From Candidatus Omnitrophota bacterium (GTDB lineage Bacteria > Omnitrophota > Gorgyraeia > 2-01-FULL-45-10), in assembly GCA_903843285.1 (NCBI GenBank), contig CAIMPC010000007.1, positions 28,730 through 92,729 on the forward strand: a stretch of 64,000 nt of DNA, read 5' to 3'. This document shows positions 42,222 to 60,688 of the stretch, one piece after another. The translations under genes were made by a program, and so were the position numbers. The notes below the pieces were generated by a model. That model was given only the letters and a program-made list of their open reading frames with translations. It did not search any database and was not told where the DNA came from. Position 1 is the stretch's first letter; the number at the start of each line of letters is the position of its first letter.

Positions 42222-43101
42222 AAATATGAGTTATCCTAAAAGAGAGTGTCCCCTGTGCAAAAAAAAGGGTCGGGAGATATTGTATAAGCTGGATGAGTTT
42301 AACATCGTAAGGTGTGATGGCTGCGGCCTTATCTTCAGAGATATTATCCTGTCGGCCGAGTTTGCGAAACAGCTGTACTCAGGAGACTATTTTACGAACG
42401 AGCAGGCCGACTACTTCTTCAATTATCCGAAAGAGAAAGAGGATATCTTCCGGTCCCGCATACAGATGCTTGAGCCTTACGAGCCGGAAGGCAGAAATAT
42501 GCTAGACATCGGCTGTGCTATAGGGACTTTCCTGAAGATTGCCAGAGAATGTGGATGGGAGACCAGAGGGATAGAGACTTCGGAATATGCCTCCGGATAC
42601 GCCAGGGATAATTACGGACTGGATGTAATTTGCGGAGAATTCGACGCTGAAAAATTTTCCGAGGAAGATAAGTTTGATGTGATAACGATGTGGGATGTAG
42701 TGGACCATGCGGAAGATCCGATAAAATTCCTGAAGGATGCAGCCTCTCTCCTGAAAAAGAACGGCTACATGTTCGTAGAAACGACCATGGAGGATAGCCT
42801 GGTATATACGATATGCAACTATATTTACCGGTTATCATTTGGACTTATCAAGCTTCCGGTCATGAGAGGGCATCCTGTCCATCACTCGACATTTTTTTCC
42901 AGACAGACAATGCGGAAGGCGCTGGAACAATGCGGCATGAAGATTAAGGCCGTGGTGCCAACGAAATATCCCGAAAAATTCTTCCCTGGAAGTCATTTCA
43001 GTAAAATGTTATTCAAACTGTTCTATGCCCTGGGAAATAAGTTTGACAGGCCTCTCGTAGTTACTTTCGTCGTGCAAAAAAACAAGGTGATTGACGGATG
43101 A
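42202..43101 (+). CDS. Class I SAM-dependent methyltransferase with N-terminal zinc ribbon
   Basis: CPLCKK...CDGCGLIF zinc ribbon. Motif I MLDIGCAIGTF. DVITMWDVVDH. Alternative starts at 42208 and 42226. Confidence 0.72.
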   Translation: MIMIKNENMSYPKRECPLCKKKGREILYKLDEFNIVRCDGCGLIFRDIILSAEFAKQLYSGDYFTNEQADYFFNYPKEKEDIFRSRIQMLEPYEPEGRNMLDIGCAIGTFLKIARECGWETRGIETSEYASGYARDNYGLDVICGEFDAEKFSEEDKFDVITMWDVVDHAEDPIKFLKDAASLLKKNGYMFVETTMEDSLVYTICNYIYRLSFGLIKLPVMRGHPVHHSTFFSRQTMRKALEQCGMKIKAVVPTKYPEKFFPGSHFSKMLFKLFYALGNKFDRPLVVTFVVQKNKVIDG

Positions 43102-44063
43102 AAAAGCCGCGCGTTCCAGCCATGAAATATCCGCTTCTCCTTATATACAGGATCGTGGGAATCATTTTCAGGCAGGATGGCCGGATCGCCAAAAGGCTGC
43201 CCGATTATTTCCCGACATATAGATCTTTTTTCGGAGAATTACTGAACCAGTTTTTCAGGCTCATGGGAATGCCCAGGTCCTTCCAGCCACAAGGCGTTAT
43301 ATTGGAGCCCACGAATTCCTGCAACCTTAAGTGCGAACACTGCAGCGCGCGGATCAACGAAGAGAAGAGGGGGTTTATGGAGTATGATTTTTATACACAT
43401 ATTATCGATTCAAACCCCCAGATCACCTGTTTGATGCTAAGCAGGTACGGTGAACCGTTGCTCCATCCCAGGATCTTTGATATGATCACCTATGCCAAAA
43501 GAAAGGGCATATACGTCTTCTTATACACGAACGGCACGTTGCTCTCGGAGAAGATGAGCGATATGATACTGTCAAGCGGCCTCGACGAGATATTCTTTTC
43601 TCTGGAAGGTACCGGTGAAGATTATGAGAAGAACAGAGGGTTCCAATACGAAAAGTTAAAGGATAGTATGGAGCATCTGATCCGGAAAAAAGAAACGGCC
43701 GGATCGGATATTAAGATAGGGATCAATGTCGCAGGTTTAGATGGTATTGATCGCAGGCTCGATGCGGTAAGGCGGGAGTGGGGCGATAAGGTGACTTATG
43801 TGGAAACAGAACCGTTAATAGGCACCAAATCATCCCCCAGAGACAGAAGCTGCCGCACTTTATGGAGGAACGCGGTAATACGATGGGATGGTATTGTATT
43901 CCCGTGCTGCATAGATATGAATAGCAGCCTCGCGATAGGTGACGCGAAGAAAAATACGCTGAAAGAGATATTTAACGGTCCGGAGGCTTTGTCGCTCAGG
44001 CGGCGGCACCTGGAAAAGAGATTTCCCTCGGTGTGTAAAACCTGCGATAAAATGTTTGGTTAG
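43098..44063 (+). CDS. Radical SAM enzyme with C-terminal SPASM/twitch auxiliary-cluster domain
   Basis: CxxxCxxC in EPTNSCNLKCEHCSA. Cys-rich C-terminus CRTLWRNAVIRWDGIVFPCCIDMN...SVCKTCDKMF consistent with SPASM/twitch. No B12 domain. 321 aa. Confidence 0.75.
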   Translation: MKKPRVPAMKYPLLLIYRIVGIIFRQDGRIAKRLPDYFPTYRSFFGELLNQFFRLMGMPRSFQPQGVILEPTNSCNLKCEHCSARINEEKRGFMEYDFYTHIIDSNPQITCLMLSRYGEPLLHPRIFDMITYAKRKGIYVFLYTNGTLLSEKMSDMILSSGLDEIFFSLEGTGEDYEKNRGFQYEKLKDSMEHLIRKKETAGSDIKIGINVAGLDGIDRRLDAVRREWGDKVTYVETEPLIGTKSSPRDRSCRTLWRNAVIRWDGIVFPCCIDMNSSLAIGDAKKNTLKEIFNGPEALSLRRRHLEKRFPSVCKTCDKMFG

Positions 44064-44076
44064 AAGAGCCAATTAA

Positions 44077-45528
44077 ATGAATAATTATGATAGAGCCGGT
44101 TTTAAAGTCTTATTGATCAGCCCTCCATTGTCGGTGGCTAAGCAGGCGGGCAGCCTGAAGGGCATAGCTAATGTCCTGCCAACCATGGGAATAGGCTATA
44201 TAGCGTCCCTGCTGGAAAGGCATGGAATAGGTGTGCGCATATTTGATTACATCGGGGAGCCCAAGATCCTCGAGGATATGCTCAAGGACATATCGGATGC
44301 ATCCCCGGACATAATAGGCATAACGGCTACCATCCTTACCATCTCAACCTCGAATGAGCTTGCAGAAGAGATCAGGAACAGGTTTCCGGGTATACCGATT
44401 ATTATCGGCGGGCCGCAGTTATGCTCGGCTCCCGAAAAGACGATGAGTTCCGGTCCTTACGATATCGGAGTGGTCGGAGAGGGGGAAGAGACGATGCTTG
44501 AGCTCTCCAATGCGATCAAGTCCGGCGTAAAGGATTTTAGCGGTATAAGAGGGCTTATAATCAAGAAGGATGGAAAGCTTGTCTTCACAGCGCCCAGGCC
44601 TTATATCGAAGATCTGGACCTCTTACCTCCTCCGGCCCGGCATCTCTACCCCCCCCTCCATAAATATAATCCGGTACCCGCTTCATACATAAAGAAACCG
44701 GTTGGCCTTATGATATCGTCGAGGGGATGTCCATATCAATGCATATTTTGCGACAGGAAAGTATTCGGAAATAAGTTCAGGGCTCATTCTCCAAAATATG
44801 TCGTGGATGAGATGGAGAACGTGATCAATGTGCACGGTGCCCGCGAAATACGTTTCATGGATGATACTTTTACTCTCGACATAAAAAGAGTGGATGAGAT
44901 ATGCGATGAGATACTAAAGAGAAGAATTAAAGTCCCGTGGACGTGCCTTACGCGCGTTAATACCGTAAACCTGGAGATCCTTAAGAAGATGAAGAAGGCG
45001 GGGTGCTGGCAGGTAATATACGGTATAGAGGCGGGTGACCAGCGGATGCTTGATATCATTAAGAAAGGCGTTACCGTAGAACAGAATGAAACGGGTATCA
45101 AGCTTGCGAAGAGAGCGGGGCTTAATGTCAGGGCGACATTCGTATTTGGCCTTCCCGGAGAGACTCTCGATACCATAAAAAATACGGTTAATTTCGCAAA
45201 GAGGATGAATCTCGATGTGGTGAATTTTTTTACCGTGATACTATTCCCGGGCAACGAGCTTTACTCCATGGCCAAAAAGGCGGGGAAGATACTTCATGAG
45301 AATTACGACGAATATACGTCACTCATAGATACGGAAGAGACCCATCTGCATTACGTACCCGAAGGCATCACTGAGATCCAGATGAAGAACGCGATAGTTG
45401 AAGCCTACAGGACCTACTATTTCAGGCCGGGCTATATACTGCGGCAATTGTTTTCTATAAAGAACGCGGAAGATATACTTCGCTACTGGACAGCATTTAA
45501 GTCGGTAGTCTCGATGAGGAAGGTTTAA
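44077..45528 (+). CDS. B12-binding-domain radical SAM enzyme (paralog 3)
   Basis: N-terminal B12-binding-like domain (IIIGGPQ, VVGEGEET). CxxxCxxC in SSRGCPYQCIFCD. DLDLLPPPARHL motif shared with paralogs 4 and 5. 483 aa. Confidence 0.8.
   Translation: MNNYDRAGFKVLLISPPLSVAKQAGSLKGIANVLPTMGIGYIASLLERHGIGVRIFDYIGEPKILEDMLKDISDASPDIIGITATILTISTSNELAEEIRNRFPGIPIIIGGPQLCSAPEKTMSSGPYDIGVVGEGEETMLELSNAIKSGVKDFSGIRGLIIKKDGKLVFTAPRPYIEDLDLLPPPARHLYPPLHKYNPVPASYIKKPVGLMISSRGCPYQCIFCDRKVFGNKFRAHSPKYVVDEMENVINVHGAREIRFMDDTFTLDIKRVDEICDEILKRRIKVPWTCLTRVNTVNLEILKKMKKAGCWQVIYGIEAGDQRMLDIIKKGVTVEQNETGIKLAKRAGLNVRATFVFGLPGETLDTIKNTVNFAKRMNLDVVNFFTVILFPGNELYSMAKKAGKILHENYDEYTSLIDTEETHLHYVPEGITEIQMKNAIVEAYRTYYFRPGYILRQLFSIKNAEDILRYWTAFKSVVSMRKV
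44649..44656 (+). repeat. Homopolymeric C8 tract inside B12-rSAM paralog 3
   Basis: cta-cccccccc-tcc at 44649-44656 encodes Y-P-P-L in HLYPPLHKY. It is the longest homopolymer G/C run noticed in the window. Confidence 0.5.
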
Positions 45529-45530
45529 CA

Positions 45531-46643
45531 ATGCTTCAAGAGCTAAAAGGGTTAATAAAGAAACAGTACAATTATATAAATGTCTTCAAAGCCTACTCCG
45601 TTCCCACGCTATTAAAAGAGATCTTTCTCTTCCCGAAAGACCTTATGTCGGGCTCCGGTAAAAGCTCCGGCCTATTGAACGTGGCGCTCTTTGTTACGAC
45701 AAGGTGCAATGCTCGCTGCGCTATGTGCAATATAACCGACATATTGAATGACAGCGGCAACACTGACATATCACTCGAAAAGATAGCATCATTTCTGGAT
45801 GATATTGCGCGCTACAAGCCGAGCATAATACTCTTTGGAGGAGAGCCTTTCGTAAGAAAAGATATTCCGGACATAGTGCGCTTAGTCAATGAGAGAGGGC
45901 TAACATCAGGTATATTTACAAACGGCACGTTACTTAATGTAGAGTTGATCAAAAAATTGATCGAATCCGGATTGGGCCACATAGCGTTTTCGCTGCAGGG
46001 GAACAGGGATATACACGACTCTATACTCTCCGTTCCCGGCGCTTACGACAAGATGATAAATAATATAAGGGCCTTCACATCTATTAAGCCCAGAGGCACC
46101 AGCGTTATCACGCATACCACTATATGCGAATATAATTTAAATTGCCTAAGTGAAGTGGCCAGGACGGCATTAGGCCTCGGGGTTGATCTCGTCAGGTTCG
46201 GGCACCCGACTTTCTTTTCTACCGCTGAGGAAAGGCGCTCGAACGAATGCTTGAAGTCCGTATTTAAAGACTCCAAACAGATAAAAGCGACAAGCTACAT
46301 ATATGATATCCGGGGCAAGGAAATAATATATCTTGAGAAGATAAAGCAGTTAAAGGCTGAATTCGGCGGCAGGATCTCGTTTACACCTGAGTTGGGCGAA
46401 AAAGAACTGGCGGCATGGTACTCCCCGGACTTCAGATCAGGAAGAAATTGCCTCTTCATGTGGAGAGGACTTTTTGTACGCCCGAACGGGGATGCCTATC
46501 CATGCGAGTCGATCAGCTATAAGATGGGAAATGTGTTCGAAGACGGTTTTTCTAAGGTATGGAACGGGCCAAAGTACAGGGAATTCAGGCGAGTTTTAAA
46601 AAAAGGCCTTCTCCCGGCTTGCGCCAGATGCTGCAAATTATAA
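45531..46643 (+). CDS. Radical SAM enzyme with C-terminal SPASM/twitch-like Cys cluster
   Basis: CxxxCxxC in VTTRCNARCAMCN. C-terminal NCLFMWRGLFVRPNGDAYPCES...PACARCCKL. No B12 domain. 370 aa. Confidence 0.72.
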   Translation: MLQELKGLIKKQYNYINVFKAYSVPTLLKEIFLFPKDLMSGSGKSSGLLNVALFVTTRCNARCAMCNITDILNDSGNTDISLEKIASFLDDIARYKPSIILFGGEPFVRKDIPDIVRLVNERGLTSGIFTNGTLLNVELIKKLIESGLGHIAFSLQGNRDIHDSILSVPGAYDKMINNIRAFTSIKPRGTSVITHTTICEYNLNCLSEVARTALGLGVDLVRFGHPTFFSTAEERRSNECLKSVFKDSKQIKATSYIYDIRGKEIIYLEKIKQLKAEFGGRISFTPELGEKELAAWYSPDFRSGRNCLFMWRGLFVRPNGDAYPCESISYKMGNVFEDGFSKVWNGPKYREFRRVLKKGLLPACARCCKL

Positions 46644-46655
46644 AGGGTTAAAATC

Positions 46656-48389
46656 ATGAAAAAGATCAAACAGAACCTGGCTTTATTATCCATAATCATT
46701 TCCGCCTTAGCGATCAGGCTGTACTCAATCTATGCCAATCTTCCTCTTATGTATTGGCACGATGAGAACAATTATATCGATAACGCTCTTCGTTTCGGCA
46801 CGGGAAACCTTGAATTAATAACCTTAACGCATGGCGCCCTGTATCAAATCGTCCTGTTTTTAGGATATTCGGGCTATTATGTTTTCGGAAAGATTGCGGG
46901 TTTTTTCCATTCTCCGATCGATCTATATTTGGGATACCTGAAGGATCCGACCAGTTTATTTCTGATAGCAAGAGGTATTACCGTTATATGCGGTGTCGGA
47001 ACCGTATACCTGACTTATCTGGTAGGAAGAAAGATCTATGGCAGAAATATCGGCCTCGCAGCCGGACTTTTCGCCGGGTTCTCCTTATTGATGGTTCAGA
47101 TGTCTTCTCTGGCGCTAGCGGATGTGCCATCAGTATTTATTTTAATGTTATCCTTCATATCTATCGTATACAGCATTGAAAAGCCGGGAGAGGTTAGGTT
47201 CTATTATGCCGCGGCAGTTCTCATCGGCCTGGCCGCCGCATGCAAATATTTCACCGTATTCGGCATTGCTCCGTTATATGTAGCTGCATTTATCAAGGGT
47301 CAGCATCTCGAGCACAGGGCAAAAGGTATCTTACGGCTCATAATGTGCGGCTCTTTTTTCGTATTTCTAGGCTCTTTTATAGGCATGCCTTTCTTTTTAT
47401 TGAATCTGGATAGATTTTACCAGGAGGCGATCCTTAGTAATAGCGGCGCGTATATTCTTACAAATACAAATGAAAACATCTGGCTCTTTTATTTCACCAA
47501 TCACATACGAAATGGCTTAGGCGTGCCGCTCGGAATTTTATCAGTATGCGGTATCCTTTATGCTATGTATAAGCGTTCAAAATGGGATATACTTCTTGTC
47601 TCCACTCCGATCGCGCATTACATCCTTTTCATGCATTCTACCGGATTTGCGTATCACCTGCTTCCGGTAATACCCTTTATGTTCATCCTGTCGGCAAGGC
47701 TCCTATATTCCGTTATTAATAAATTATTTCCAAAATTTGTGACGCCTGTATTTGTATGCGCTTGTATAATGATCGTTATTCCGACAGCTTGCGATTCGGT
47801 GAAGTTCATGAAAGTGATCTCCGGCCCGGACACCAGAACCATAGCGAAGGTCTGGATAGAGAAGAATATTCCGGCGGGCGCAGAAATACTCGAAGAAGGC
47901 TATATCTCCGCTATTCCGATACACGGGCCGGTGCTGACGGATAATTTGAAAACCCTCAGAAGGGACCTTGACTCCGCGGTCTTGGCAGGCGGGAGCGGTA
48001 TTCCATTAAAGATGAGAATGGAGAACTTCGACCGGCTGTATGCCGGGAGTAAGTTATATGATATGTTTAAGAAGTACGCGATATCGGCTGATGAGGCAAA
48101 AAGCACCAGCGCCTCGTATATCATAATATCGGGTGATAATGATAATCCTACTGGGCCCGAATTCAATTATTCTATGCCAAAAAATTATTATGAAGAGCGT
48201 GAAAAAATGATGAATATTGTCCTTTCGCGATATGAGCTTATCAAGTCATTTGCGCCTTCTTACCAAATGACGGCGTGGGTGCCTCACATGTCGGACCTGG
48301 ACTATGTTGCGCTGAGATCTGTGAAATGGGACAATCTTAAAGATTACATAAAAGGTCCCAGGATAGATGTCTTTAAACTAAGAGGGTGA
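46656..48389 (+). CDS. GT-C glycosyltransferase, PMT_2/ArnT-like, with C-terminal soluble domain
   Basis: 577 aa. N-terminal polytopic region with LAIRLYSI...YWHDENNY (acidic periplasmic-loop motif) and RGITVICGVGTVYLTYLVGRKIYG, typical of GT39/GT83. ~200-aa hydrophilic C-terminal domain. Confidence 0.65.
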   Translation: MKKIKQNLALLSIIISALAIRLYSIYANLPLMYWHDENNYIDNALRFGTGNLELITLTHGALYQIVLFLGYSGYYVFGKIAGFFHSPIDLYLGYLKDPTSLFLIARGITVICGVGTVYLTYLVGRKIYGRNIGLAAGLFAGFSLLMVQMSSLALADVPSVFILMLSFISIVYSIEKPGEVRFYYAAAVLIGLAAACKYFTVFGIAPLYVAAFIKGQHLEHRAKGILRLIMCGSFFVFLGSFIGMPFFLLNLDRFYQEAILSNSGAYILTNTNENIWLFYFTNHIRNGLGVPLGILSVCGILYAMYKRSKWDILLVSTPIAHYILFMHSTGFAYHLLPVIPFMFILSARLLYSVINKLFPKFVTPVFVCACIMIVIPTACDSVKFMKVISGPDTRTIAKVWIEKNIPAGAEILEEGYISAIPIHGPVLTDNLKTLRRDLDSAVLAGGSGIPLKMRMENFDRLYAGSKLYDMFKKYAISADEAKSTSASYIIISGDNDNPTGPEFNYSMPKNYYEEREKMMNIVLSRYELIKSFAPSYQMTAWVPHMSDLDYVALRSVKWDNLKDYIKGPRIDVFKLRG

Positions 48390-49879
48390 AGCGCATTATG
48401 AAGGTAACCCTGATATACCCTTTGCTTTCCAGAAAGCGCGCGAGGGTAGACGAAAATAAGCAGTTCTGGCCGCCGCTCGGGTTGGCCTATATAGCCGCTG
48501 TACTTGAAAAGGAGTCCCATAATGTCGAAATAATAGATAGGGACTTATCATTACGCAAGAATGGCCTTGATTTCGATAAGACAGACCTGGATACGCTGGA
48601 GCATATAAGATCTTTTAATTCGGAAATTGTCGGGATCAGCGTTACTACTCCAAACATGCCGGACGTTATTCATATTTCGAATCTTATTAAGCAATATTTC
48701 CCGAATATAGCAGTAGTCGTAGGCGGCCCCCATGTTTCAGGTGAGCCGCTTCTTACTCTTAAAGAAGCGGGATCTGTAGATGTTGCGGTCGGGGGCGAAG
48801 GGGAATTGACTATGTTGGAACTTGCCTCCGGTAAAAGCTGTTCTTCCATAAGCGGTATAATCTATAGAAAAGACGGGGGTATTATCACTAATCCCGACAG
48901 GCCGCTTATTGCCGATATTGACACGCTTCCTTTGCCGGCAAGGCATCTACTGGATATGAAATCTTACACAAGGCCGTCCAGGTTCACGAGCCGGAACCTT
49001 AATCTAAGGACAACATCGATCTTTACGGCCAGGGGTTGTCCTTACAGGTGCAATTTTTGCGCCGGTCCTTTGGTATTCAAAGGTAAAGTCCGTTTTCATT
49101 CCATGGATCGTGTGGCAAAGGAGATAGAGGAACTAATATCGAAATATGACATAGAGGCGCTCTATTTCGCCGAGGATATGTTTTTGAGCTCCAGGAAAAG
49201 GGCGGAGGAGCTGCTCGGACTTTTCGTCGAAAAAGGAATATCCAAAAGAATAAAATGGATAGCGCAGGCTAAGGCAAGTATCGTCACGGAAGATCTGCTA
49301 CGCCTCATGAAAGAGGCGGGATGCGTCGGCGTGGAATACGGTTTTGAGTCCGGATCGCAGAGGGTCCTTGATCTAATGAACAAGAAGCAGAAGATAGAGG
49401 AGAGTTTAAGGGCGGCTCAGCTGACGAGGAAGGCGCATCTGCGGTTCCAGGCGAATATCATAACCGGCTATCCGGGCGAAACTGCCGAGGATTTCAGGCA
49501 AACACTTAAGTTTATAAAAACAATTCGTCCGAACATGATAGGCTTTAATATCTTCATGCCGTTGCCGGGCACTCCGAGCTACGAGCAGTTGAAGCGTGAG
49601 GGAAAACCCCTACCCAATTGGGAAGACGTCGGAGACCAGGAGGCTTCTCAGGCCAGTTATGCTGATATGCCGGAGGGCATGTTTGAAAGGCTCTATCTCG
49701 AGGCCAGGCTTAAAGTCATATTACCGATAAATCTTAAAAATTTCATTAAGGATAACGCTAAGCATCCTCTAAGGCTTATCAGTATTGCGCTTACTCAGTT
49801 CAGCGGTGTTCTTGTCAAAGCAGTGCGTATGAGCGTAAGGCTTATCTTCATGAATAAGAAGGCGAAAGACCCTGCATGA
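48386..49879 (+). CDS. B12-binding-domain radical SAM enzyme (paralog 4)
   Basis: B12-binding-like N-domain (VVVGGPHVSG, AVGGEGELT). DIDTLPLPARHLL. CxxxCxxC in TARGCPYRCNFCAG. Alternative start at 48398. ATGA overlap with the upstream gene. Confidence 0.8.
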   Translation: MKRIMKVTLIYPLLSRKRARVDENKQFWPPLGLAYIAAVLEKESHNVEIIDRDLSLRKNGLDFDKTDLDTLEHIRSFNSEIVGISVTTPNMPDVIHISNLIKQYFPNIAVVVGGPHVSGEPLLTLKEAGSVDVAVGGEGELTMLELASGKSCSSISGIIYRKDGGIITNPDRPLIADIDTLPLPARHLLDMKSYTRPSRFTSRNLNLRTTSIFTARGCPYRCNFCAGPLVFKGKVRFHSMDRVAKEIEELISKYDIEALYFAEDMFLSSRKRAEELLGLFVEKGISKRIKWIAQAKASIVTEDLLRLMKEAGCVGVEYGFESGSQRVLDLMNKKQKIEESLRAAQLTRKAHLRFQANIITGYPGETAEDFRQTLKFIKTIRPNMIGFNIFMPLPGTPSYEQLKREGKPLPNWEDVGDQEASQASYADMPEGMFERLYLEARLKVILPINLKNFIKDNAKHPLRLISIALTQFSGVLVKAVRMSVRLIFMNKKAKDPA

Positions 49880-51111
49880 AAGTGCTATTCTTATCATATA
49901 ACGGCTTGCTTGAGCCGATCTTGCCCTCTCAAGCCTTACCTTATTTGAAAGGTCTGACCGGTTCGGACTATGAATTTATACTCCTGACTTATGAAAAGAA
50001 AAAAGATCTCGACAGGGTAGGTGCCGCCGCTATCAAAGAATTAAAAGAAGGCCTTAAGCAAGACGGTATCGAATGGTATCATTTGCGGTATCATAAGAGC
50101 CCACCCGTATTATCCACAATATTCGATCTGATAGTCGGAAGTCTGAAAACATTTTTTTTAATAAAATCCGCTCACGTTAAGATAGTGCATGTCAGGGGTG
50201 TAACTCCTGGTGTTATCATGATCATGCTTTCGAAACTGCTTCGGGTTAAGATTCTTTTTGATATGAGAGGGCTCCTCGCTGAGGAGTATGTCGGAGGAGG
50301 CATGTGGAAAACGGACAGCCTTCAGTTCAGACTCGTGAAGAGAGCTGAAAAAAAGCTTCTTACCATTGCGGATGCTGTCACGGTCCTTACTCAAAAACAT
50401 TTCGATCTTAATAGATCTCTCGATTATCTGGAGAAGCGAAATATTCCCATGGAAGTCATACCGTGCTGTGTCGATACGACAAAGTTCGATTACGAAGAAA
50501 GTTCCGGGATCGGCCTAAGGGATAGCATTGGACTAAAGAATAAATTTGTTTTAATGTATCCCGGCAAACTGGGGTCATTTTATTATATCGATGAGATGAT
50601 AGCTTTTTTCGGCAGTATGATAAAGATGATCCCTGAAGCGGTATTATTTGTAGTGACTAATGATGACCCGAAAATCGTAATAGACAGAACGGAAGCCTTA
50701 AATATCCCGAAAGATAAGGTATTTATAAAGACAAACGTAGCATTTGATAAAATGCCGTCTTATATGCGCCTCGCAGACACTGGGATATTTTTCATCAATC
50801 CGTATAATAAGTTCGGGTCTTCGCCGATAAAGATGGGTGAGTTTTTGGCTTCAGGGGTGCCGGTCATTATTAATCCGGGCGTCGGAGACACTGAAGAGCT
50901 GGTGCGCGTAAATCGCGTAGGGGTGGTTGTAAATAAATTTGATGAGAAAGATTTCAAGCTCGCGGTAGACGAATTACTGAACTTAAAAAAAGAAGGGGAG
51001 AATTTACGCGCTCGCTGCAGAGATACGGCCAAGAAGCATCTTTCAAAAGACGAAGCGATAATTAAATATGCTGAGATATACAAAGTATTATCATCAGCGG
51101 AATCGCAATAA
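49876..51111 (+). CDS. GT4-family (GT-B) glycosyltransferase
   Basis: C-terminal group-1 glycosyltransferase signature GEFLASGVPVIINPGVGDTEELV with conserved Glu pair. 411 aa. Confidence 0.7.
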   Translation: MKVLFLSYNGLLEPILPSQALPYLKGLTGSDYEFILLTYEKKKDLDRVGAAAIKELKEGLKQDGIEWYHLRYHKSPPVLSTIFDLIVGSLKTFFLIKSAHVKIVHVRGVTPGVIMIMLSKLLRVKILFDMRGLLAEEYVGGGMWKTDSLQFRLVKRAEKKLLTIADAVTVLTQKHFDLNRSLDYLEKRNIPMEVIPCCVDTTKFDYEESSGIGLRDSIGLKNKFVLMYPGKLGSFYYIDEMIAFFGSMIKMIPEAVLFVVTNDDPKIVIDRTEALNIPKDKVFIKTNVAFDKMPSYMRLADTGIFFINPYNKFGSSPIKMGEFLASGVPVIINPGVGDTEELVRVNRVGVVVNKFDEKDFKLAVDELLNLKKEGENLRARCRDTAKKHLSKDEAIIKYAEIYKVLSSAESQ

Positions 51112-51153
51112 ACATAGTTAAAGCCGAAGCATTTTTACATGAAAAGGAGCGAT

Positions 51154-51888
51154 ATGAAACGAATATACGGCTGGATTCCGGATATACCTGATAGGAGGGA
51201 TCTGTTATATAAGGCCATAAGGCCTGTTATGCGTCTGCCGGACAAAGTTGACTTAAGGACCGGTTGTTCAGCTATAGAGAATCAGGGCAGCCTTGGAAGC
51301 TGTACCGCTCAGGCGCTGGCAGGGAATCTCGAATACCTGGACAACATTATAGATTCTGAGTATACAGATGTAAGCCGATTGTTCATATATTACAATGAAC
51401 GCCTGCTCTCCGGTGATGTATCATACGACTCCGGAGCATATCTGCGGGACGGTATTAAGACATTAAAGAACTATGGATCCTGCTCCGAAGATATGTGGCC
51501 TTACGTGGTCAAGCGATTTGCCGTGAAGCCGCCGGCCGCGTGTTATTCCGATGCTAAGAACCATATTATTGTGTCCTATCACAGGATCGATACACTTTCC
51601 GAGATGCTCACCTGCCTTGCGGAGGGGTATCCGTTCGTTTTCGGTTTCTCCATATATGATAGTTTTGAGTCAGATACTGTAAAACGGACAGGTATAGTGA
51701 ATATGCCAAAGAAAAGCGAGAGCATGATAGGCGGTCACGCGGTAATGGCCGTGGGCTACGATAAGACGAAGAAACGCTTTTTGGTACGTAACTCCTGGGG
51801 TGAAGATTGGGGTATGGATGGATATTTCACAATGCCGTTCACATATCTCGAAGAGCTCGCCGCGGATTTCTGGACAATACGAAAGTAA
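51154..51888 (+). CDS. Papain-like cysteine peptidase (family C1), apparently cytoplasmic
   Basis: The track ORF starts at 51139. ATG at 51154 with AAGGAG RBS. Gln oxyanion ENQG. Cys in GSCTAQALAG. His in IGGHAVMAVGYD. Asn/Trp in NSWGEDWGMDGY. The full C1 catalytic set is conserved. Confidence 0.75.
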   Translation: MKRIYGWIPDIPDRRDLLYKAIRPVMRLPDKVDLRTGCSAIENQGSLGSCTAQALAGNLEYLDNIIDSEYTDVSRLFIYYNERLLSGDVSYDSGAYLRDGIKTLKNYGSCSEDMWPYVVKRFAVKPPAACYSDAKNHIIVSYHRIDTLSEMLTCLAEGYPFVFGFSIYDSFESDTVKRTGIVNMPKKSESMIGGHAVMAVGYDKTKKRFLVRNSWGEDWGMDGYFTMPFTYLEELAADFWTIRK

Positions 51889-51894
51889 AAGAGA

Positions 51895-52626
51895 ATGAGT
51901 CGTAACATAAGACGGGTATTATTATCACTGATCGTGCTAGCGGCAGTTATATGGGTAGCGAATCTTCCCACGTCTATTCATGTCGGTGTGAACGGATATT
52001 TCAGGCAGATACATATGCCGCTCTATGTAAAGTGGACGCAGTTTTTGGCCCGACACTATGAGTACGAAAGACTTGCAAGGCAGATAACGGCTGGTTGCAG
52101 GACTGAAGAAGAGAAGGTGCTCGCTATACTTAGATGGACCAAGAGTAATTTGAGAAATGTGCCGGCGGGCATGCCGGTATGTGATGACCACACTCTATAC
52201 ATAATTATAAGAGGTTATGGCATGCCGGGGCAGTTTCAGGACATATTTACAACATTGTGCGCGTATGCCGGGCTACCGGCTTTTTTTGGAAAAGCGTACG
52301 ACAGACAGCATAATAACAAGTATAACCTTTCTTTCGTTAAGCTGCATGGGAAATGGCGGGTCTTCGATGCCTATTATGGGAAATATTTTAAGAGCAGTAA
52401 CGGCGATATAGCAGCAGTGGAAGATATTCTCAAAGATCATTCTCTGATAAAGGGTAATGGCGTGGATGCTATCGTAATCAACGGTATTCCCTATTCAGAT
52501 TTTTACTATACTCTAGATTTGAGCACAGCTAGAAACGGGTCGACTCTTCGCCCGTATAGGCAGATGCCGTTTCAGCGGATATTGTATGAGATCAAAAAGG
52601 CATTTAAAATAGAGAAAGATGAATAA
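51895..52626 (+). CDS. Membrane-anchored transglutaminase-like (Cys-His-Asp) domain protein
   Basis: N-terminal TM helix (VLLSLIVLAAVIWVANL). TGase-like core: Cys in FTTLCAYAGLPAFF, His in FVKLHGKWRVFDAYYG, then Asp. 243 aa. Confidence 0.45.
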   Translation: MSRNIRRVLLSLIVLAAVIWVANLPTSIHVGVNGYFRQIHMPLYVKWTQFLARHYEYERLARQITAGCRTEEEKVLAILRWTKSNLRNVPAGMPVCDDHTLYIIIRGYGMPGQFQDIFTTLCAYAGLPAFFGKAYDRQHNNKYNLSFVKLHGKWRVFDAYYGKYFKSSNGDIAAVEDILKDHSLIKGNGVDAIVINGIPYSDFYYTLDLSTARNGSTLRPYRQMPFQRILYEIKKAFKIEKDE

Positions 52627-52708
52627 AATTACCGCTCAGGCCGATTATACTTGCGAATATTGCCTATTCCGAAGACATATGCAATAATATAACTCTAAGG
52701 AGACGCCA

Positions 52709-53713
52709 ATGTTGAACATAGGTATTGTAGGATACGGATATTGGGGGCCGAATATAGCGCGTAATTTTAGCGCTGTAGAAGGAGTTAAGGTTGCCGCAAT
52801 ATGCGACAATAGGCAGGATGCGTTAACCCGCGCGAAGAAGGCTCATCCGAATGTGGATATTTTTACGGACTATCGCGATATCACCAGGTCCAATAGTATC
52901 GACGTCGTTGCCATAGTAACGCCTGTTTCGACCCACTTTCAGCTTGCCAAAGATGCCCTTAAAAATGGCAAGCATATATTTGTGGAAAAACCGTTTACTG
53001 CAAACGTCATGGAGGCAACGAAGCTGATAGAGCTGGCCGATAAGAATAGCTTAAAGATCGCGGTTGATCACACGTTTCTGTTTACCGGAGCTGTTAAGAA
53101 GATAAAGGAGATGGTGGACGATCGTAAATTGGGAGAGCTTTACTACTACGATTCCACGAGGGTTAATTTGGGCCTCTTTCAGCATGATGTCAATGTTATA
53201 TGGGACCTGGCTCCTCATGATCTTTCAGTGATGGACTACGTAATTAAGGAGAAGCCGATTGCGATTACCGCGACCGGCATAGACCACTTTGGCAGAAACC
53301 TGGCAAATATAGCATATATAACGGTATATTTTAAGAGTAACCTTATTGCCCACTTTAATCTGAACTGGCTTTCGCCTGTCAAGATAAGGATGACGCTCAT
53401 TGGCGGAGAGAAGAGGATGCTTGTATGGAACGATCTGGAAACCGATGAGAAGATAAAGATTTATGATAAGGGCGTCAGCGTTAAAAATACGGAAAGCGTT
53501 TACAACCTTTTGGTTGAATACCGCTCAGGAGATATGTGGGCGCCTCGCGTGGATCATACTGAAGCGTTAAAATTGGAATTAGCATACTTCATCGATTGCA
53601 TCAATAAGAACAAGAATCCGATAAATGATGGTAAGGCCGGCCTCAGGATAGTGGAGATGCTAGAGGCATCTGATGCATCTCTAAGAGCGAAAGGTAAGCT
53701 TATAAAACTATGA
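52709..53713 (+). CDS. Gfo/Idh/MocA-family oxidoreductase, WbpB/WlbA-like (UDP-GlcNAcA 3-dehydrogenase candidate)
   Basis: N-terminal Rossmann IGIVGYGYWGPNIARNF. EKPF motif (HIFVEKPFT). 334 aa. Upstream region carries AAGGAGA RBS and an AT-rich putative promoter. Confidence 0.7.
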   Translation: MLNIGIVGYGYWGPNIARNFSAVEGVKVAAICDNRQDALTRAKKAHPNVDIFTDYRDITRSNSIDVVAIVTPVSTHFQLAKDALKNGKHIFVEKPFTANVMEATKLIELADKNSLKIAVDHTFLFTGAVKKIKEMVDDRKLGELYYYDSTRVNLGLFQHDVNVIWDLAPHDLSVMDYVIKEKPIAITATGIDHFGRNLANIAYITVYFKSNLIAHFNLNWLSPVKIRMTLIGGEKRMLVWNDLETDEKIKIYDKGVSVKNTESVYNLLVEYRSGDMWAPRVDHTEALKLELAYFIDCINKNKNPINDGKAGLRIVEMLEASDASLRAKGKLIKL

Positions 53714-58066: not shown

Positions 58067-60688
58067 ATGGGCAATAACATACTTCTCATTAATCCGGCCG
58101 TAAATTCTTCATCACAGAATAAGATCGTAAGCTCTGCGATAAATACAACTTTTCCTACCAGCCTCGGTGCCATCGCCGGCTATTTAATAGCGCATGGCAT
58201 CTCTCCCGTTCGCATAATCGATGAACAGCTGGATTTTATTAAAAACGAAGACCTTGCCTTTTTAATTAATTCCCTAGAGAAGCCGCGTATAGTAGGCCTT
58301 AGCGTATTGACCATAAATTCCAAGAGGGCTTATGAGCTGGGAGCTAAAATAAAGAAAATAGACACGGATTGCGTTATCGTAGCCGGCGGTATACATCCCA
58401 CTGTATTACCCGATGAGGCGCTTTCCAATGCAGGCATAGATATAGTTGTCAGGGGAGAGGGGGAAAGGACATTTGAGGAGCTATCGCATTCGATAATTAA
58501 AGGCAGTGATTATAGCGGCATCTCCGGTGTATCATTTAAACGTAATGGTGGGATCGTCCATAATGCCGATAGGCCTTTGATCGAGGACCTCGACGAGATA
58601 CCGTCATTTCCCTATCATCTTTTTGAAAAAGATAAAGACAGGTATCCGTCATTCGGCGGCATATTTACGTCAAGAGGATGCCCGTATAACTGTATATTCT
58701 GTTCTTCCCGAAGCATTTCGGGGAAAAGATACAGGTATTTCAGCATCCAGAGGGTAATGTCCGAGATCAAAGTCCTTATCGAGAGATACGGACAAAAGAC
58801 GATATGGTTAATGGATGATAATATAGCTGGTAATAGCCGGCGCTTCATTGAGCTACTCGATTCTATAAAGGCGGCAGGTTTATCCGAGGATATAAATTTT
58901 CACGGTTCCATGCGTGCTGACAATATAAGCGAAGAGATACTTGATAGGGCGAAGGCCGCTAATTTTAAGATGATAGCCTTCGGCATGGAAACGAGTTCAG
59001 AGTCACTTATGAAGCTGATCGGTAAAGGTGAGACGGTGAAACAGGTTGTGGATGCGGTAAAGCTGACCCATAGGAAGGGTATAGCTGCCGCTACAACAAT
59101 AATCTTCGGCCTTCCCGGGGAAGTGTCCAGGGACAGATGGGATGCGATCAGGCTGGTCGATGATATGCCGCTATCGAGCATCCGGTTCAATACCCTTACG
59201 CCGTATCCGGGAACCCCTGTTTATGAGATGTTAAAGCGCCGGGGAGAGCTGGTAGTGGAAAAAGATTGGGAAAATTTCGCTGTTCAATATATGTGGGAGG
59301 GTGACGACCTGCCGTATGTCCCCAAAGGCAATGATAAATATGAGCTGATGTTTGATACTATGTTTGCGAACCTATCGTTCTATCTCAGCATAAAAGGCAT
59401 CGGAAGGCTTCTTAGGTCATCGTTTGCCGGTGGTAACGTGATAAAGATGTCCGAAAGGTGGTACCTTTCTCCGGAAAAAGTATGGAACCTTCTCCGGTTG
59501 GTTCTATTCCTGAATTTCCGGTTCTTTTCTGTGGCGCTAAAGGTTGTTGCAAATAAGTTCAATAAAAATAGCCAGCTTAAGTACGCATCCTATAAAGATG
59601 ACCTTGAAAAGTTATCGGCGTATTATGAAGGTAAGGAGCTTGCTCCAGGACCGGATGCTGTCGGAGCGCTCCAGGATTCTTATGCCGAAAAAGTGTTTGA
59701 GAATGTTGTTTATGAAAAATATGCGGACCTGCGCCGGCCTTTTTACACATTTAGCCCGTTCAATTATCAGCGGATTCCGCCTGCGGCCAGATATTATGGG
59801 CAAAAGCTTTTTAAGCGAGATAACCGACTGACCATGGCGTTTCCGTCATGGCCTTATGAGGGTTCGCTGGAACGTCTTCGTAAAGTTTTTGCCGGAAGGT
59901 CATCTGGAATAGAGTACGACCGTTTCATTAAACCCATCAGTTGGCCGGAAAATAAACGTTGTGCGCTTATACTTACACATGATATCGAAAGCGATACGAA
60001 CTGGAAGTGGGTGCGTAAAATCGCGTCCATGGAAAAAGAATTAGGTTTCAGATCATCATGGAATGTAGTCCCAAAGCTATACAAAATCGATTATGCTGTG
60101 CTGGACTGGCTTGCGCAAAACGGCTTCGAGATAGGTCTGCATGGTTATAATCATGATAATAAATTGGCTTATTTGAGCGAAGAAAGTATGAGAAATAGGC
60201 TGGAGGCAAGCAGAGATCTTATCAAGTTATATAACATAGCCGGTTTCAGGTCTCCGTCATGGCTTCGGAGTGAGCGGCTCTTTAATGTGCTGCAGGAATA
60301 TTTTTTATACGACTGCAGCGTGCCGGATGTAGACTATTTATCTCCCGCAGGCATAGGAGGATGTTGTTCCGTTTTTCCGTATATGAGAGGCAGATTGGTC
60401 GAGCTCCCGACCACTCTGCCCTATGAGTTTCCTGTTCAATGCGGAGTGAAGCCTTCCGATCTGAATGCTTTTTGGAAAGAGAAGATTTCAAAGATCAAAG
60501 AAAATATGGGATGCATTACCGTAGTCACCCACCCCGATCCTTTTTACGGCGGCAATGATTCAATGGTCAGCTCATATAAAGAATTATTGGAGGGGCTGGC
60601 AGGGGATAGAGATATTGTCTCCATGCTGCCGAGAGATGCAGCTGCACACTATCTTAAGAAGATAGGGCTTGATAAAAGAGGGGCATAG
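58067..60688 (+). CDS. Fusion protein: B12-binding radical SAM enzyme (paralog 5) fused to a C-terminal CE4/NodB-like polysaccharide deacetylase domain
   Basis: 873 aa. N-terminal B12-binding-like domain (VIVAGGIHPT, VVRGEGERT). CxxxCxxC in TSRGCPYNCIFCSS. Hydrophobic linker (VWNLLRLVLFLNFRFF). C-terminal CE4 motifs: ILTHDIESD (motif 1 variant), HGYNHD (HxxxH), GFRSPSW (RxP). Confidence 0.75.
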   Translation: MGNNILLINPAVNSSSQNKIVSSAINTTFPTSLGAIAGYLIAHGISPVRIIDEQLDFIKNEDLAFLINSLEKPRIVGLSVLTINSKRAYELGAKIKKIDTDCVIVAGGIHPTVLPDEALSNAGIDIVVRGEGERTFEELSHSIIKGSDYSGISGVSFKRNGGIVHNADRPLIEDLDEIPSFPYHLFEKDKDRYPSFGGIFTSRGCPYNCIFCSSRSISGKRYRYFSIQRVMSEIKVLIERYGQKTIWLMDDNIAGNSRRFIELLDSIKAAGLSEDINFHGSMRADNISEEILDRAKAANFKMIAFGMETSSESLMKLIGKGETVKQVVDAVKLTHRKGIAAATTIIFGLPGEVSRDRWDAIRLVDDMPLSSIRFNTLTPYPGTPVYEMLKRRGELVVEKDWENFAVQYMWEGDDLPYVPKGNDKYELMFDTMFANLSFYLSIKGIGRLLRSSFAGGNVIKMSERWYLSPEKVWNLLRLVLFLNFRFFSVALKVVANKFNKNSQLKYASYKDDLEKLSAYYEGKELAPGPDAVGALQDSYAEKVFENVVYEKYADLRRPFYTFSPFNYQRIPPAARYYGQKLFKRDNRLTMAFPSWPYEGSLERLRKVFAGRSSGIEYDRFIKPISWPENKRCALILTHDIESDTNWKWVRKIASMEKELGFRSSWNVVPKLYKIDYAVLDWLAQNGFEIGLHGYNHDNKLAYLSEESMRNRLEASRDLIKLYNIAGFRSPSWLRSERLFNVLQEYFLYDCSVPDVDYLSPAGIGGCCSVFPYMRGRLVELPTTLPYEFPVQCGVKPSDLNAFWKEKISKIKENMGCITVVTHPDPFYGGNDSMVSSYKELLEGLAGDRDIVSMLPRDAAAHYLKKIGLDKRGA

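What the first reader, a model, noticed from the sequence alone, without database searches (positions are those of the whole stretch)
51154..52626. Papain-like C1 cysteine peptidase and a membrane-anchored transglutaminase-like protein embedded between glycosyltransferase and nucleotide-sugar genes
Seen: 51154 conserves the full C1 catalytic set (Gln in ENQG, Cys in GSCTAQA, His in GGHAVMAVGYD, Asn-Ser-Trp in NSWGEDWG) and has no signal peptide. The next gene has an N-terminal TM helix and a Cys/His/Asp transglutaminase-like core. Both sit in the co-directional, tightly packed gene array between a GT4 and the WbpB-like gene. Inference: a protease or transamidase pair inside a glycan locus is atypical. 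It could process or cross-link a protein acceptor (a glycoprotein or S-layer link), attach an amino-acid or peptide substituent to a sugar, or be a moonlighting acyltransferase-like enzyme. Transglutaminase-fold proteins include amidases and acyl transferases.
Basis: partly seen in the sequence, partly recalled or inferred. Interest (0 to 1): 0.58.

Follow-up and report, generated by a model that had tools for sequence, protein, structure and literature searches.

The report
Unlinked cysteine protease and dead transglutaminase-fold gene
The two neighbouring genes are real but are not a working pair: one is an ordinary, widely transferred papain-type protease that landed in a sugar-polymer gene cluster, and the other is a membrane-anchored transglutaminase-shaped protein that has lost its catalytic cysteine and histidine yet is a regular, unstudied part of such clusters.

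Summary
Both ORFs exist as described in a co-directional Candidatus Omnitrophota glycan locus. Gene A (51154-51888) is a complete, signal-less C1A peptidase closest to PDB 3OIS, which I take to be xylellain (E 2e-59). Its family occurs at 52-73% identity across many bacterial phyla, archaea and jumbo phages. It has no conserved neighbour in 77 loci, and B is absent from all 80 genome loci fetched with A.

Gene B (51895-52626) has one N-terminal TM helix and a confident transglutaminase-like fold. The claimed Cys/His/Asp core is wrong: the nucleophile position is Pro111, the His position is Leu145, and only Asp158 is kept. No Cys is conserved across 48 family members.

B is nevertheless a true glycan-locus gene. 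GT4, B12-radical-SAM, PMT_2, DegT or AsnB-type genes flank it in nearly all of the 26 loci with usable flanks. It is fused to a GT87 glycosyltransferase, and to a second multi-pass membrane protein, in two lineages.

A lies next to B only in the window's close relatives, and the two are 516 kb apart on one 710-kb contig. The protease/transamidase-pair reading is not supported. A is a known kind. B belongs to an uncharacterised Cys-less transglutaminase-fold family that probably acts on the periplasmic side of glycan assembly.

The parts
51154..51888 (+). Gene A: C1A (papain-family) cysteine peptidase of the xylellain type, 244 aa, no signal peptide or TM segment
   Evidence: Pfam PF00112 E 7e-18. 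PDB 3OIS matches at E 2e-59 over residues 3-243. A 100%-identical protein, P0001, is in public data. No hydrophobic segment.
51144..51149 (+). Shine-Dalgarno-like AAGGAG, 4 nt upstream of ATG 51154
   Evidence: Read directly from the sequence. The gene callers of the public copies also start A at this ATG.
51283..51303 (+). Codons for Gln44 through the catalytic Cys50 (ENQGSLGSC)
   Evidence: Aligned to the cathepsin K NQGQCGSC motif. Q44 and C50 are invariant in 28 orthologues.
51736..51798 (+). Codons for catalytic His195 through Asn213-Ser-Trp215
   Evidence: Aligned to the cathepsin K HAV...NSWG motifs. H195, N213, S214 and W215 are invariant.
51895..52626 (+). Gene B: membrane-anchored protein with a transglutaminase-like fold that lacks the catalytic Cys and His, 243 aa
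   Evidence: Pfam PF01841 at 27.8 bits. AF2 pLDDT 93.8. Foldseek hits to TGase-like structures. Residue conservation.
51916..51972 (+). N-terminal signal-anchor helix of B (residues 8-26), preceded by the basic stretch MSRNIRR
   Evidence: Hydropathy 2.25. Helix 2-22 in the model. The N-in/C-out orientation is inferred from the positive-inside rule.
52069..52368 (+). Transglutaminase-like core of B (residues 59-158): invariant D97 and near-invariant H99, the Y108-G109-x-P111 stretch where TGases have YGQC, invariant Q113, and W154...D158
   Evidence: Pfam match to residues 59-141. Helix 111-124 and strands 129-158 in the model. Column composition.
49876..51111 (+). GT4 glycosyltransferase upstream of A. 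Its family is the most frequent companion of B in other loci.
   Evidence: Pfam Glycos_transf_1. The GT4 cluster occurs in 25 of 41 B loci.
52709..53713 (+).
   Evidence: Pfam. The same block follows B in L005, L006 and L100.
46656..48389 (+). PMT_2-type membrane glycosyltransferase with about 11 TM-like segments; candidate periplasmic-face partner of B
   Evidence: Pfam PMT_2. TM count. PMT_2 clusters recur in B loci. B is fused to a GT87 enzyme in P0289.

Best explanation
These are two unrelated genes that happen to be adjacent in this Omnitrophota lineage.

Gene A is a catalytically complete, cytoplasmic C1A cysteine peptidase of the xylellain type. It is a compact stand-alone gene under strong purifying selection that moves horizontally among bacteria, archaea and large phages. 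In this lineage it occupies a variable slot between a GT4 gene and gene B, and it most likely works as an ordinary papain-type thiol protease with no dedicated role in glycan chemistry.

Gene B is the true locus component. It is an N-in signal-anchored protein whose transglutaminase-fold domain faces the periplasm and has lost the Cys and His of the triad, so it cannot perform thiol transamidation or proteolysis. It keeps an invariant polar set instead: K46, R53, W81, D97, H99, R106, Q113, D158, Q223 and R228. I infer that B binds, and possibly processes by a non-thiol mechanism, the anionic lipid-linked or nascent glycan at the periplasmic face, working with GT-C-type glycosyltransferases of a Wzx-dependent pathway.

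Shown here: the fold of each protein, the residue losses in B, the lack of A-B linkage, and B's glycan-locus residence and fusions. Inferred: B's orientation, its partner and its ligand.
For: Gene A. Pfam C1. Full-length match to 3OIS at E 2e-59. Q44/C50/H195/N213 are invariant. 569 relatives were found in species genomes, and the top 80 are 52-73% identical across Omnitrophota, Planctomycetes, Verrucomicrobia, Bacteroidota, Acidobacteriota, Actinomycetota, Desulfobacterota, a CPR Nomurabacteria genome and archaea. No neighbour cluster recurs in more than 6 of 77 loci, and neighbours share A's strand in only 57% of cases. The Pfam families of the 141 immediate neighbours are heterogeneous, and two are chagasin-type I42 inhibitors of papain-like proteases. 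Jumbo phages carry homologues at 49% and 40% identity, in line with the reported transfer of xylellain-type peptidases to viruses (PMC10380794).

The slot upstream of B is variable. It holds a second GT4 gene in L006 and L089, a GT2 gene in L005, a B12-rSAM gene in L088, and nothing between GT4 and B in L097. Omnitrophota polysaccharide cassettes are reported to be hypervariable loci (bioRxiv 10.64898/2026.06.07.730766).

Gene B. pLDDT 93.8. TGase-like fold hits. No conserved Cys; position 111 is A/S/P/D/N, position 145 is L/V/I/F, and D158 is kept in 46 of 48. Glycan genes flank B in nearly all 26 loci with usable flanks: GT4 in 16, B12-rSAM in 14, DegT in 12. Seven of seven looked-up contexts are glycan loci. 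Fusions exist to GT87 (P0289) and to a roughly 600-aa multi-pass membrane protein (P0269), and both lie inside glycan loci. B has a single TM helix after a basic N-terminus.
Against: A and B are separated by only 6 nt with no terminator-like site between them, so they are probably co-transcribed. The adjacency survives in L087, where B has diverged to 64% identity. Within Omnitrophota, A lies in or beside glycan/EPS genes in about 8 of 13 contexts, which could reflect function rather than a shared variable region; I could not compute a genome-wide baseline. B's orientation, ligand and partner are not shown by any experiment, and I could not inspect model coordinates to confirm that the invariant residues cluster in the old active-site cleft. 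The register that places Cys at P111 and His at L145 rests on secondary structure plus my recollection of the human TG2 motifs and the Pfam consensus, not on a computed structural superposition.
Confidence: 0.6

Rival explanations
1. One reading: A and B form a protease/transamidase pair that processes or cross-links a protein acceptor or attaches a peptide or amino acid to the glycan.
For: The two genes are tightly spaced in one co-directional array. The adjacency is kept in L087 and on the contig carrying P0003 and P0162. Both folds belong to the papain-like/transglutaminase clan.
Against: B has no conserved Cys or canonical His. A is predicted cytoplasmic and B's domain periplasmic. No B homologue lies near A in any of 80 loci. 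A is present in only 2 of 26 B loci. The two are 516 kb apart on one contig.
Confidence: 0.06
2. In Omnitrophota specifically, A is functionally tied to glycan synthesis. For example it could be a nucleotide-responsive cytoplasmic protease that turns over glycan-pathway enzymes, or an amidase acting on a peptide- or acyl-substituted sugar.
For: A sits in or beside glycan/EPS genes in about 8 of 13 Omnitrophota contexts: the window, L087, L003, L007, L009 (where a GFO/hexapeptide/DegT block lies 3 genes downstream), L010, L028 and L058. From memory, the xylellain crystal structure carries a ribonucleotide (I recall UDP) that modulates activity; I could not verify this because the paper is not held.
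Against: Outside Omnitrophota there is essentially no glycan context: 3 of 67 loci have any hit, and neighbour families are heterogeneous. In the Omnitrophota loci A is often bracketed by toxin-antitoxin pairs, typical of variable regions. B-type loci work without A. No baseline for glycan-gene density in these genomes was available.
Confidence: 0.15
3. B is an active enzyme that uses a remodelled, non-thiol site (Asp97/His99/Gln113/Asp158 with Arg53/106/228). It could be a hydrolase or transferase acting on amide, ester or phosphodiester groups of the glycan, perhaps coupled to AsnB-type amidation of uronic acids.
For: Seven residues are invariant and four nearly invariant in a family with only 33% mean column identity. 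An AsnB-type amidotransferase lies immediately upstream of B in about 15 of 41 loci. The window encodes two UDP-sugar dehydrogenases and a GFO/hexapeptide/DegT block, consistent with acidic amino-sugars.
Against: I know of no precedent for a transglutaminase-fold enzyme without the Cys. The same conservation pattern would fit a specific binding site. AsnB would act in the cytoplasm, whereas B is predicted to be periplasmic. This overlaps with the best explanation and differs only on catalysis versus binding.
Confidence: 0.25
4. A is a leader peptidase of a RiPP-like pathway, suggested by the many radical-SAM/SPASM and B12-radical-SAM genes in the array.
For: Two SPASM rSAM genes and at least five B12-rSAM genes are in the locus. 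A gives a weak Peptidase_C39_2 hit (E 0.0018, below cut-off).
Against: The same rSAM genes occur in B-type loci that lack A. A's family has no conserved rSAM neighbour. No precursor peptide was seen. The array is otherwise sugar-nucleotide and GT genes.
Confidence: 0.03

Closest known systems
Xylellain (Xylella fastidiosa C1A peptidase; I take PDB 3OIS to be this protein) and the 'short bacterial C1A / xylellain-type' peptidases
   Same: There is full-length similarity at E 2e-59. Both have the same Gln/Cys/His/Asn catalytic set, a short conserved N-terminal segment instead of a long prodomain, and no signal peptide. Both are stand-alone genes with a patchy, HGT-driven distribution that includes viruses (PMC10380794).
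   Different: Xylellain-like peptidases of plant pathogens are discussed as secreted or host-directed factors, and their substrate is unknown (PMC12090721). The window's protein comes from an Omnitrophota genome and lies in a glycan locus. No activity data exist for it.
HvyA of Caulobacter crescentus (BTLCP family), and its distant relative LapG
   Same: HvyA is a transglutaminase-like protein encoded inside a capsule/polysaccharide locus that acts in the periplasm on capsule production (PMC4241560). LapG structures appear among B's Foldseek hits.
   Different: HvyA needs its Cys192/His226/Asp241 triad and is a soluble periplasmic protein with a cleaved signal sequence (PMC4241560). B has no Cys or His at those positions, is membrane-anchored, and matches only Pfam Transglut_core.
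Catalytically inactive transglutaminase-fold domains (menin; from memory also Rad4/XPC and erythrocyte band 4.2)
   Same: They keep the transglutaminase fold without the nucleophile and use it as a binding module. Menin appears among B's Foldseek hits.
   Different: These are eukaryotic, cytoplasmic or nuclear, and bind protein or DNA. B is bacterial, probably periplasmic, and genomically tied to glycan assembly.
3ISR, putative cysteine protease from Cytophaga hutchinsonii (the best structural match)
   Same: It is the best Foldseek hit: E 4.6e-6, 122 aligned columns, 21% identity.
   Different: TM-score is only 0.39. 3ISR is annotated as a putative Cys protease of unknown function, whereas B lacks the Cys.

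Membership tests
Peptidase family C1A (papain family), xylellain type - gene A | Profile match above the curated threshold | tested here: met
   PF00112 at 65.9 bits against a cut-off of 20.7, covering residues 33-232.
Peptidase family C1A (papain family), xylellain type - gene A | Catalytic Gln (oxyanion hole), Cys, His and Asn present and conserved | tested here: met
   Q44, C50, H195 and N213 align with the cathepsin K motifs and are invariant in 28 orthologues.
Peptidase family C1A (papain family), xylellain type - gene A | Full-length similarity to xylellain, with a short N-terminal segment and no signal peptide | tested here: met
   3OIS matches at E 2e-59, query 3-243 against chain 31-287. 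No hydrophobic segment. The N-terminal YGWxPDxPDxRD motif is invariant.
Peptidase family C1A (papain family), xylellain type - gene A | E-64-sensitive peptidase activity | not testable with these tools
   This needs recombinant enzyme assays.
Transglutaminase-like superfamily as active thiol enzymes (Transglut_core) - gene B | Profile match and fold | tested here: met
   PF01841 at 27.8 bits against a cut-off of 23, a partial match to profile positions 2-84 of 108. Foldseek hits to 3ISR, TglA, a TGase, PeiP, CPR-C4 and LapG have probability 1.0 but TM-scores of only 0.3-0.42.
Transglutaminase-like superfamily as active thiol enzymes (Transglut_core) - gene B | Cys-His-Asp catalytic triad | tested here: not met
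   The Cys position is P111 (A/S/P/D/N in the family) and the His position is L145 (L/V/I/F); D158 is kept. The only column with at least 50% Cys is the mid-helix position 122, in 24 of 48 sequences. The register comes from the model's secondary structure and recalled TG2/Pfam motifs.
BTLCP family (HvyA/LapG) - gene B | Periplasmic location | tested here: inconclusive
   B has a single N-terminal TM helix after a basic stretch. The orientation is inferred from the positive-inside rule only.
BTLCP family (HvyA/LapG) - gene B | C/H/D(N) triad required for function, and a BTLCP-type profile match | tested here: not met
   There is no Cys or His at the triad positions. Pfam reports only Transglut_core. 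LapG structures are weak hits, at E about 3e-3 and TM 0.35.
Conserved two-gene A+B module | Co-occurrence and adjacency across genomes | tested here: not met
   B is absent from all 80 A loci. A is present in 2 of 26 B loci. The two are 516 kb apart on contig Ga0265297_10000020.
Glycan-locus component - gene B | Recurrent residence among GT and nucleotide-sugar genes in independent lineages | tested here: met
   Seven of seven looked-up contexts are glycan loci. In the 26 loci with usable flanks, GT4 flanks B in 16, B12-rSAM in 14 and DegT in 12. The fusion proteins also lie in glycan loci.

The most novel reading that the evidence does not exclude
Gene B represents an uncharacterised family: about 619 representatives at 50% clustering, annotated only as 'transglutaminase-like domain-containing' or 'hypothetical'. 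Its members are Cys-less, His-less transglutaminase-fold proteins that have been repurposed as periplasmic factors of bacterial glycan assembly. They partner with, and are sometimes fused to, GT-C-type glycosyltransferases, and in one branch they are tightly coupled to an AsnB-type amidotransferase. They use a new Asp/His/Gln/Arg site to bind or modify the nascent glycan.
Probability: 0.35. Interest if true: 0.55.

Novelty: new variant of a known kind. Interest (0 to 1): 0.33.

Why it matters
The finding does not reveal a new protease-glycan coupling, so a tempting 'glycopeptide cross-linking' reading can be dropped. What remains useful is this. (1) A compact papain-type protease family is kept at over 50% identity across bacterial phyla, archaea and jumbo phages, yet its substrate is unknown. 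(2) A transglutaminase-fold family has lost thiol chemistry but is strictly embedded in glycan loci and fused to GT-C enzymes. If studied, that family could add an accessory component to periplasmic glycan assembly in poorly known phyla such as Omnitrophota and Nitrospinota.

Tried and rejected
2. Sequence and profile searches of PDB with B gave only noise, such as histone H3 and a viral glycoprotein. Residue mapping onto a solved TGase therefore had to rely on secondary structure and recalled motifs.
3. AlphaFold on A with a shallow alignment of very similar orthologues gave pLDDT 55. I discarded the model and ran no fold search on it. The match to 3OIS rests on sequence only.
4. PADLOC gave no hit for A or B, so a defence-system role was dropped.
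5. The xylellain structure paper (PMID 23333295) is not held. The N-terminal self-inhibition and bound-nucleotide points are therefore from memory only.
6. The broad B alignment A4 was too diverse for the locus scan, so I used A1 instead.
7. The last homologue search with the B profile found no further fusions or informative names.
8. The RiPP leader-peptidase idea for A was rejected because the rSAM genes occur without A in related loci.
9. Recent foreign insertion of the pair was rejected on codon usage and GC3. Even so, A's slot is variable among related loci.
Full report
**Setting.** The window is one long co-directional (+) array. Housekeeping genes come first: DnaK, DnaJ, AsnB, two GGDEF proteins and an LptD-like protein. 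A glycan super-locus follows from about 14.6 kb to at least 63 kb. It holds UDP-sugar dehydrogenases, rml-type genes, several epimerases and DegT aminotransferases, GT2 and GT4 enzymes, a Wzx-type flippase, two or three PMT_2-type membrane glycosyltransferases, methyltransferases, and an unusual number of B12-binding and SPASM radical-SAM genes. Identical copies of the region exist in public metagenome assemblies. Named homologues come from Candidatus Omnitrophota.

**Observation check.** Both ORFs are real.

- Gene A (51154-51888, 244 aa) has AAGGAG 4 nt upstream of its ATG. It matches Pfam Peptidase_C1 well above threshold. They align with the catalytic Gln/Cys/His/Asn of cathepsin K and are invariant in 28 orthologues. 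A has no hydrophobic segment.
- Gene B (51895-52626, 243 aa) starts 6 nt after A's stop codon. It has one TM segment at residues 8-26 and a marginal, partial match to Transglut_core (27.8 bits, cut-off 23, profile positions 2-84 of 108).
- An AlphaFold model of B built on 26 homologues is confident (pLDDT 93.8). Foldseek against the PDB returns only transglutaminase-like structures: 3ISR, 3KD4, TglA, a TGase, CPR-C4, PeiP, LapG, factor XIII and menin. TM-scores are modest, 0.3-0.42.

**The claimed Cys/His/Asp core of B is not there.**

- In 26 close homologues the invariant residues are P42, K46, R53, Y57, D97, D98, H99, Q113, D116, D158, R219, Q223 and R228.
- In 48 representatives at 28-54% identity, R53, W81, D97, R106, G109, Q113 and R228 are invariant, and K46, H99, D158 and Q223 are nearly so.
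- No Cys is conserved. C96 is V or I in most members, and C122 is mid-helix and present in 24 of 48.
- The nucleophile of this fold sits at the N-terminus of the long helix, which is residues 111-124 in the model.
- From memory, human TG2 has the motifs YGQC(277)WVFA...GIPTR, HCWVESW and WQALD(358)PTP. B reads Y108-G109-M-P111...G126-L-P-A, with L145 on the His strand and W154-R-V-F-D158 on the Asp strand.
- Cys is therefore replaced by Pro (A/S/P/D/N in the family), His by Leu (L/V/I/F), and only the Asp is kept. Thiol-based transamidase, protease or acyltransferase chemistry is excluded for this family.

**What A is.**

- The best solved relative is 3OIS, deposited as 'Cysteine protease'. 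I take it to be xylellain from Xylella fastidiosa. It matches at E 2e-59 over the full length, against about 1e-10 for cathepsins.
[quoted passage not shown] The substrate of xylellain is still unknown (PMC12090721).
- The word-index search hit its 8000-candidate ceiling, and the top 120 hits are all at least 68% identical.
- A scan of one genome per species found 569 relatives. The best 80 are 52-73% identical and span Omnitrophota, Planctomycetes, Verrucomicrobia, Bacteroidota, Acidobacteriota, Actinomycetota, Desulfobacterota, Nitrospirota, Elusimicrobia, Margulisiibacteriota, a CPR Nomurabacteria genome, Bacillota, a Methanoperedens MAG and an uncultured archaeon.
- Jumbo phages carry homologues at 49% and 40% identity, and there is a PHROG 'peptidase' match.
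- There is no defence-system match.

**A has no conserved genomic partner.**

- In 77 loci, no neighbour cluster recurs within five genes in more than 6 loci, and flanking genes share A's strand only 57% of the time.
- The Pfam families of the 141 immediate neighbours are heterogeneous. Two of them are chagasin-family I42 inhibitors, the natural inhibitors of papain-like proteases, which supports A's family being real proteases.
- No homologue of B lies within 10 kb of A in any of the 80 genome loci.
- Glycan-type neighbours are essentially confined to the Omnitrophota loci. There A lies next to GT2/PMT_2 (L007), GT4 (L010, L058), Polysacc_synt_2 (L028), a GFO/hexapeptide/DegT/epimerase block (L009), or exosortase/PEP-CTERM genes (L003).
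- In several of those loci, toxin-antitoxin pairs sit directly beside A: AbiEii, MNT/HEPN and RHH/Fic.
- This fits a variable region. Polysaccharide cassettes are reported to be hypervariable loci in Omnitrophota (bioRxiv 10.64898/2026.06.07.730766).

**What B is.**

- The family is modest in size: 619 representatives at E ≤ 1e-3 among 1.84 billion, and 215 at E ≤ 1e-30. Nearly all are proteins of about 240 aa.
- Sources call them 'hypothetical' or 'transglutaminase-like domain-containing'. They come from Omnitrophota and at least one Nitrospinota genome.
- Every context I looked up is a glycan locus. Several share the window's synteny: B12-rSAM, rSAM-SPASM, PMT_2, B12-rSAM, GT4, then B, then the GFO/hexapeptide/epimerase/DegT block.
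- In the 26 loci with usable flanks, GT4 lies within six genes of B in 16, B12-rSAM in 14, DegT in 12, epimerase in 11 and methyltransferases in 11, mostly co-directional.
- Clustering shows the GT4 family in 25 of 41 loci and PMT_2-type proteins in about 16.
- In the more distant branch, an AsnB-type amidotransferase lies immediately upstream in about 15 loci, and a MarR-type regulator lies immediately downstream in 9.
- Two representatives are fusions. P0289 is a GT87 domain followed by a TM helix and the B domain. P0269 is a roughly 600-aa multi-pass membrane protein without a Pfam match, followed by a TM helix and the B domain. Both are in glycan loci, and P0269 sits directly upstream of a Wzx-type flippase.
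- GT87 and PMT_2 enzymes are GT-C-fold, polyprenyl-phosphate-sugar-dependent transferases that act on the periplasmic face. That statement rests on established knowledge of the CAZy GT-C families and was not tested here.

**Are A and B a unit?** No.

- A precedes B only in the window, in L087 (A 83% identical, B 64%), and on the contig that carries P0003 and P0162.
- In other B loci the slot upstream of B varies. It holds a second GT4 (L006, L089), a GT2 (L005), a B12-rSAM (L088), or nothing between GT4 and B (L097).
- On the 710-kb contig Ga0265297_10000020, B's orthologue is at about 21 kb and A's at about 538 kb.
- A is predicted cytoplasmic, and B's domain is predicted periplasmic.
- Composition does not mark either gene as foreign. 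Their codon-usage distances (1.06 and 0.84) fall within the 0.57-1.25 range of similar-length genes, and GC3 is typical.
- Promoter-like and terminator-like sites are no more frequent than in shuffled sequence, and none lies in the gap before A or in the A-B gap.
- The two genes are therefore probably co-transcribed here, but only through positional accident.

**Most likely mechanism.**

- A is a papain-type thiol protease acting in the cytoplasm. From memory of the xylellain structure paper, which I could not consult, its conserved N-terminal segment may occupy the active site until activation, and a bound ribonucleotide may modulate activity. Its substrate is unknown.
- B is anchored in the inner membrane by its N-terminal helix, with the transglutaminase-fold domain outside. 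The fold has lost thiol chemistry. A strictly conserved set of Arg/Lys, Asp/His, Gln and Trp residues suggests a specific site for an anionic ligand.
- Given the fusions to GT-C-type enzymes and B's strict residence in Wzx/GT-C-type glycan loci, I infer that B binds, or processes without a thiol, the lipid-linked or nascent glycan. It would act as an accessory of a periplasmic glycosyltransferase or polymerase.
- Whether B is catalytic cannot be decided here.

**Comparison with known systems.**

- A passes every testable membership criterion for C1A, xylellain type. It is a new member of a known kind.
- B has the transglutaminase fold but fails the defining triad, so it should not be filed as a transglutaminase or cysteine protease.
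- The closest functional precedent is HvyA of Caulobacter, a periplasmic transglutaminase-like protein encoded in the capsule locus that blocks capsulation. HvyA needs its Cys/His/Asp triad and is soluble (PMC4241560).
- Triad-less transglutaminase folds used as binding modules are known in eukaryotes (menin appears).
- I found no paper linking a transglutaminase-like protein to GT-C enzymes or to AsnB in glycan loci.

**Verdict.** A is ordinary. B is a mildly interesting, uncharacterised, catalytically remodelled family. Overall interest is about 0.33.

Noticed in passing
L105, L108, L109, L112, L114-L116, L120-L123, L125, L127-L129 (gene -1 relative to B); L097, L101, L102, L104, L106, L112, L119, L120, L127 (gene +1): In the distant branch of the B family, an AsnB-type glutamine amidotransferase/asparagine synthase (about 630 aa, starting MCGICG) lies immediately upstream of B in about 15 of 41 loci. 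A 164-aa MarR-type wHTH protein lies immediately downstream in 9 loci. A GT4+DUF218 fusion follows B in 4 loci. The window's own AsnB (5005-6891) is only 38-44% identical to these.
   Followed up: partly
window 34433-35830, 39870-41276, 44077-45528, 48386-49879, 58067-60688; 43098-44063, 45531-46643: At least five B12-binding radical-SAM genes and two SPASM radical-SAM genes are embedded in the glycan locus. One of the B12-binding genes is fused to a DUF2334 domain (873 aa). The same gene types recur in related loci (L005, L006, L087-L089, L096, L097). Their role in glycan modification is unknown.
   Followed up: no
window 21483-22618: Two overlapping ORFs have the lowest GC in the window (0.36-0.37). 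The second has the most deviant codon usage in the window (distance 1.25) and carries only part of a PMT_2 domain. This may be a split or frameshifted GT-C gene, or a recent insertion.
   Followed up: no
L003 8770-9872; L009 1450-2159 and 2998-3665; L010 3558-4177: Toxin-antitoxin pairs (a small ORF plus AbiEii; MNT/HEPN twice; RHH/Fic-Doc) sit directly beside the C1 peptidase gene in other Omnitrophota genomes, between it and glycan genes.
   Followed up: partly
immediate neighbours of A homologues, alignment A3 (loci L007-L086): Two of the 141 immediate neighbours of A-family genes are chagasin-family (Pfam I42) inhibitors of papain-like proteases, which suggests a protease-inhibitor pairing in some genomes. 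I did not identify which loci they are.
   Followed up: no
phage records LR756511.1 449283-450014 (H1) and LC667451.1 151577-152317 (H2): Jumbo phages (an uncultured 595-kb phage and Burkholderia phage FLC9) encode near-full-length (95-98% of A) homologues of A at 49% and 40% identity. Lak megaphages carry more distant ones at about 25%.
   Followed up: no
L131 8001-10088 and 10502-11239; L132 8001-10526: The GT87::B fusion is followed two genes later by a second, stand-alone B paralogue. The 841-aa fusion has a roughly 600-aa multi-pass membrane N-terminus with no Pfam match and sits directly upstream of a Wzx-type flippase, so it may be a Wzy-like polymerase or an unrecognised GT-C enzyme.
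   Followed up: partly
window 61371-63017: A 548-aa protein with about 8 TM-like segments and no Pfam match lies at the end of the array. It is a candidate polymerase, ligase or GT-C-like enzyme of the pathway.
   Followed up: no
window 52660-52688: The only promoter-like site in an intergenic gap near the pair lies in the 82-nt spacer between B and the GFO oxidoreductase gene (TTGCCT-17-AATAAT with an upstream TG, 9 of 12 matches). Such sites are no more frequent in this region than in shuffled sequence.
   Followed up: no
L009 and L013 (both from isolate nDJH15bin13): One Omnitrophota MAG carries two copies of the A-family peptidase on different contigs. One lies beside a GFO/hexapeptide/DegT block and the other between a UbiA-family gene and an ABC-2 transporter pair.
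   Followed up: no
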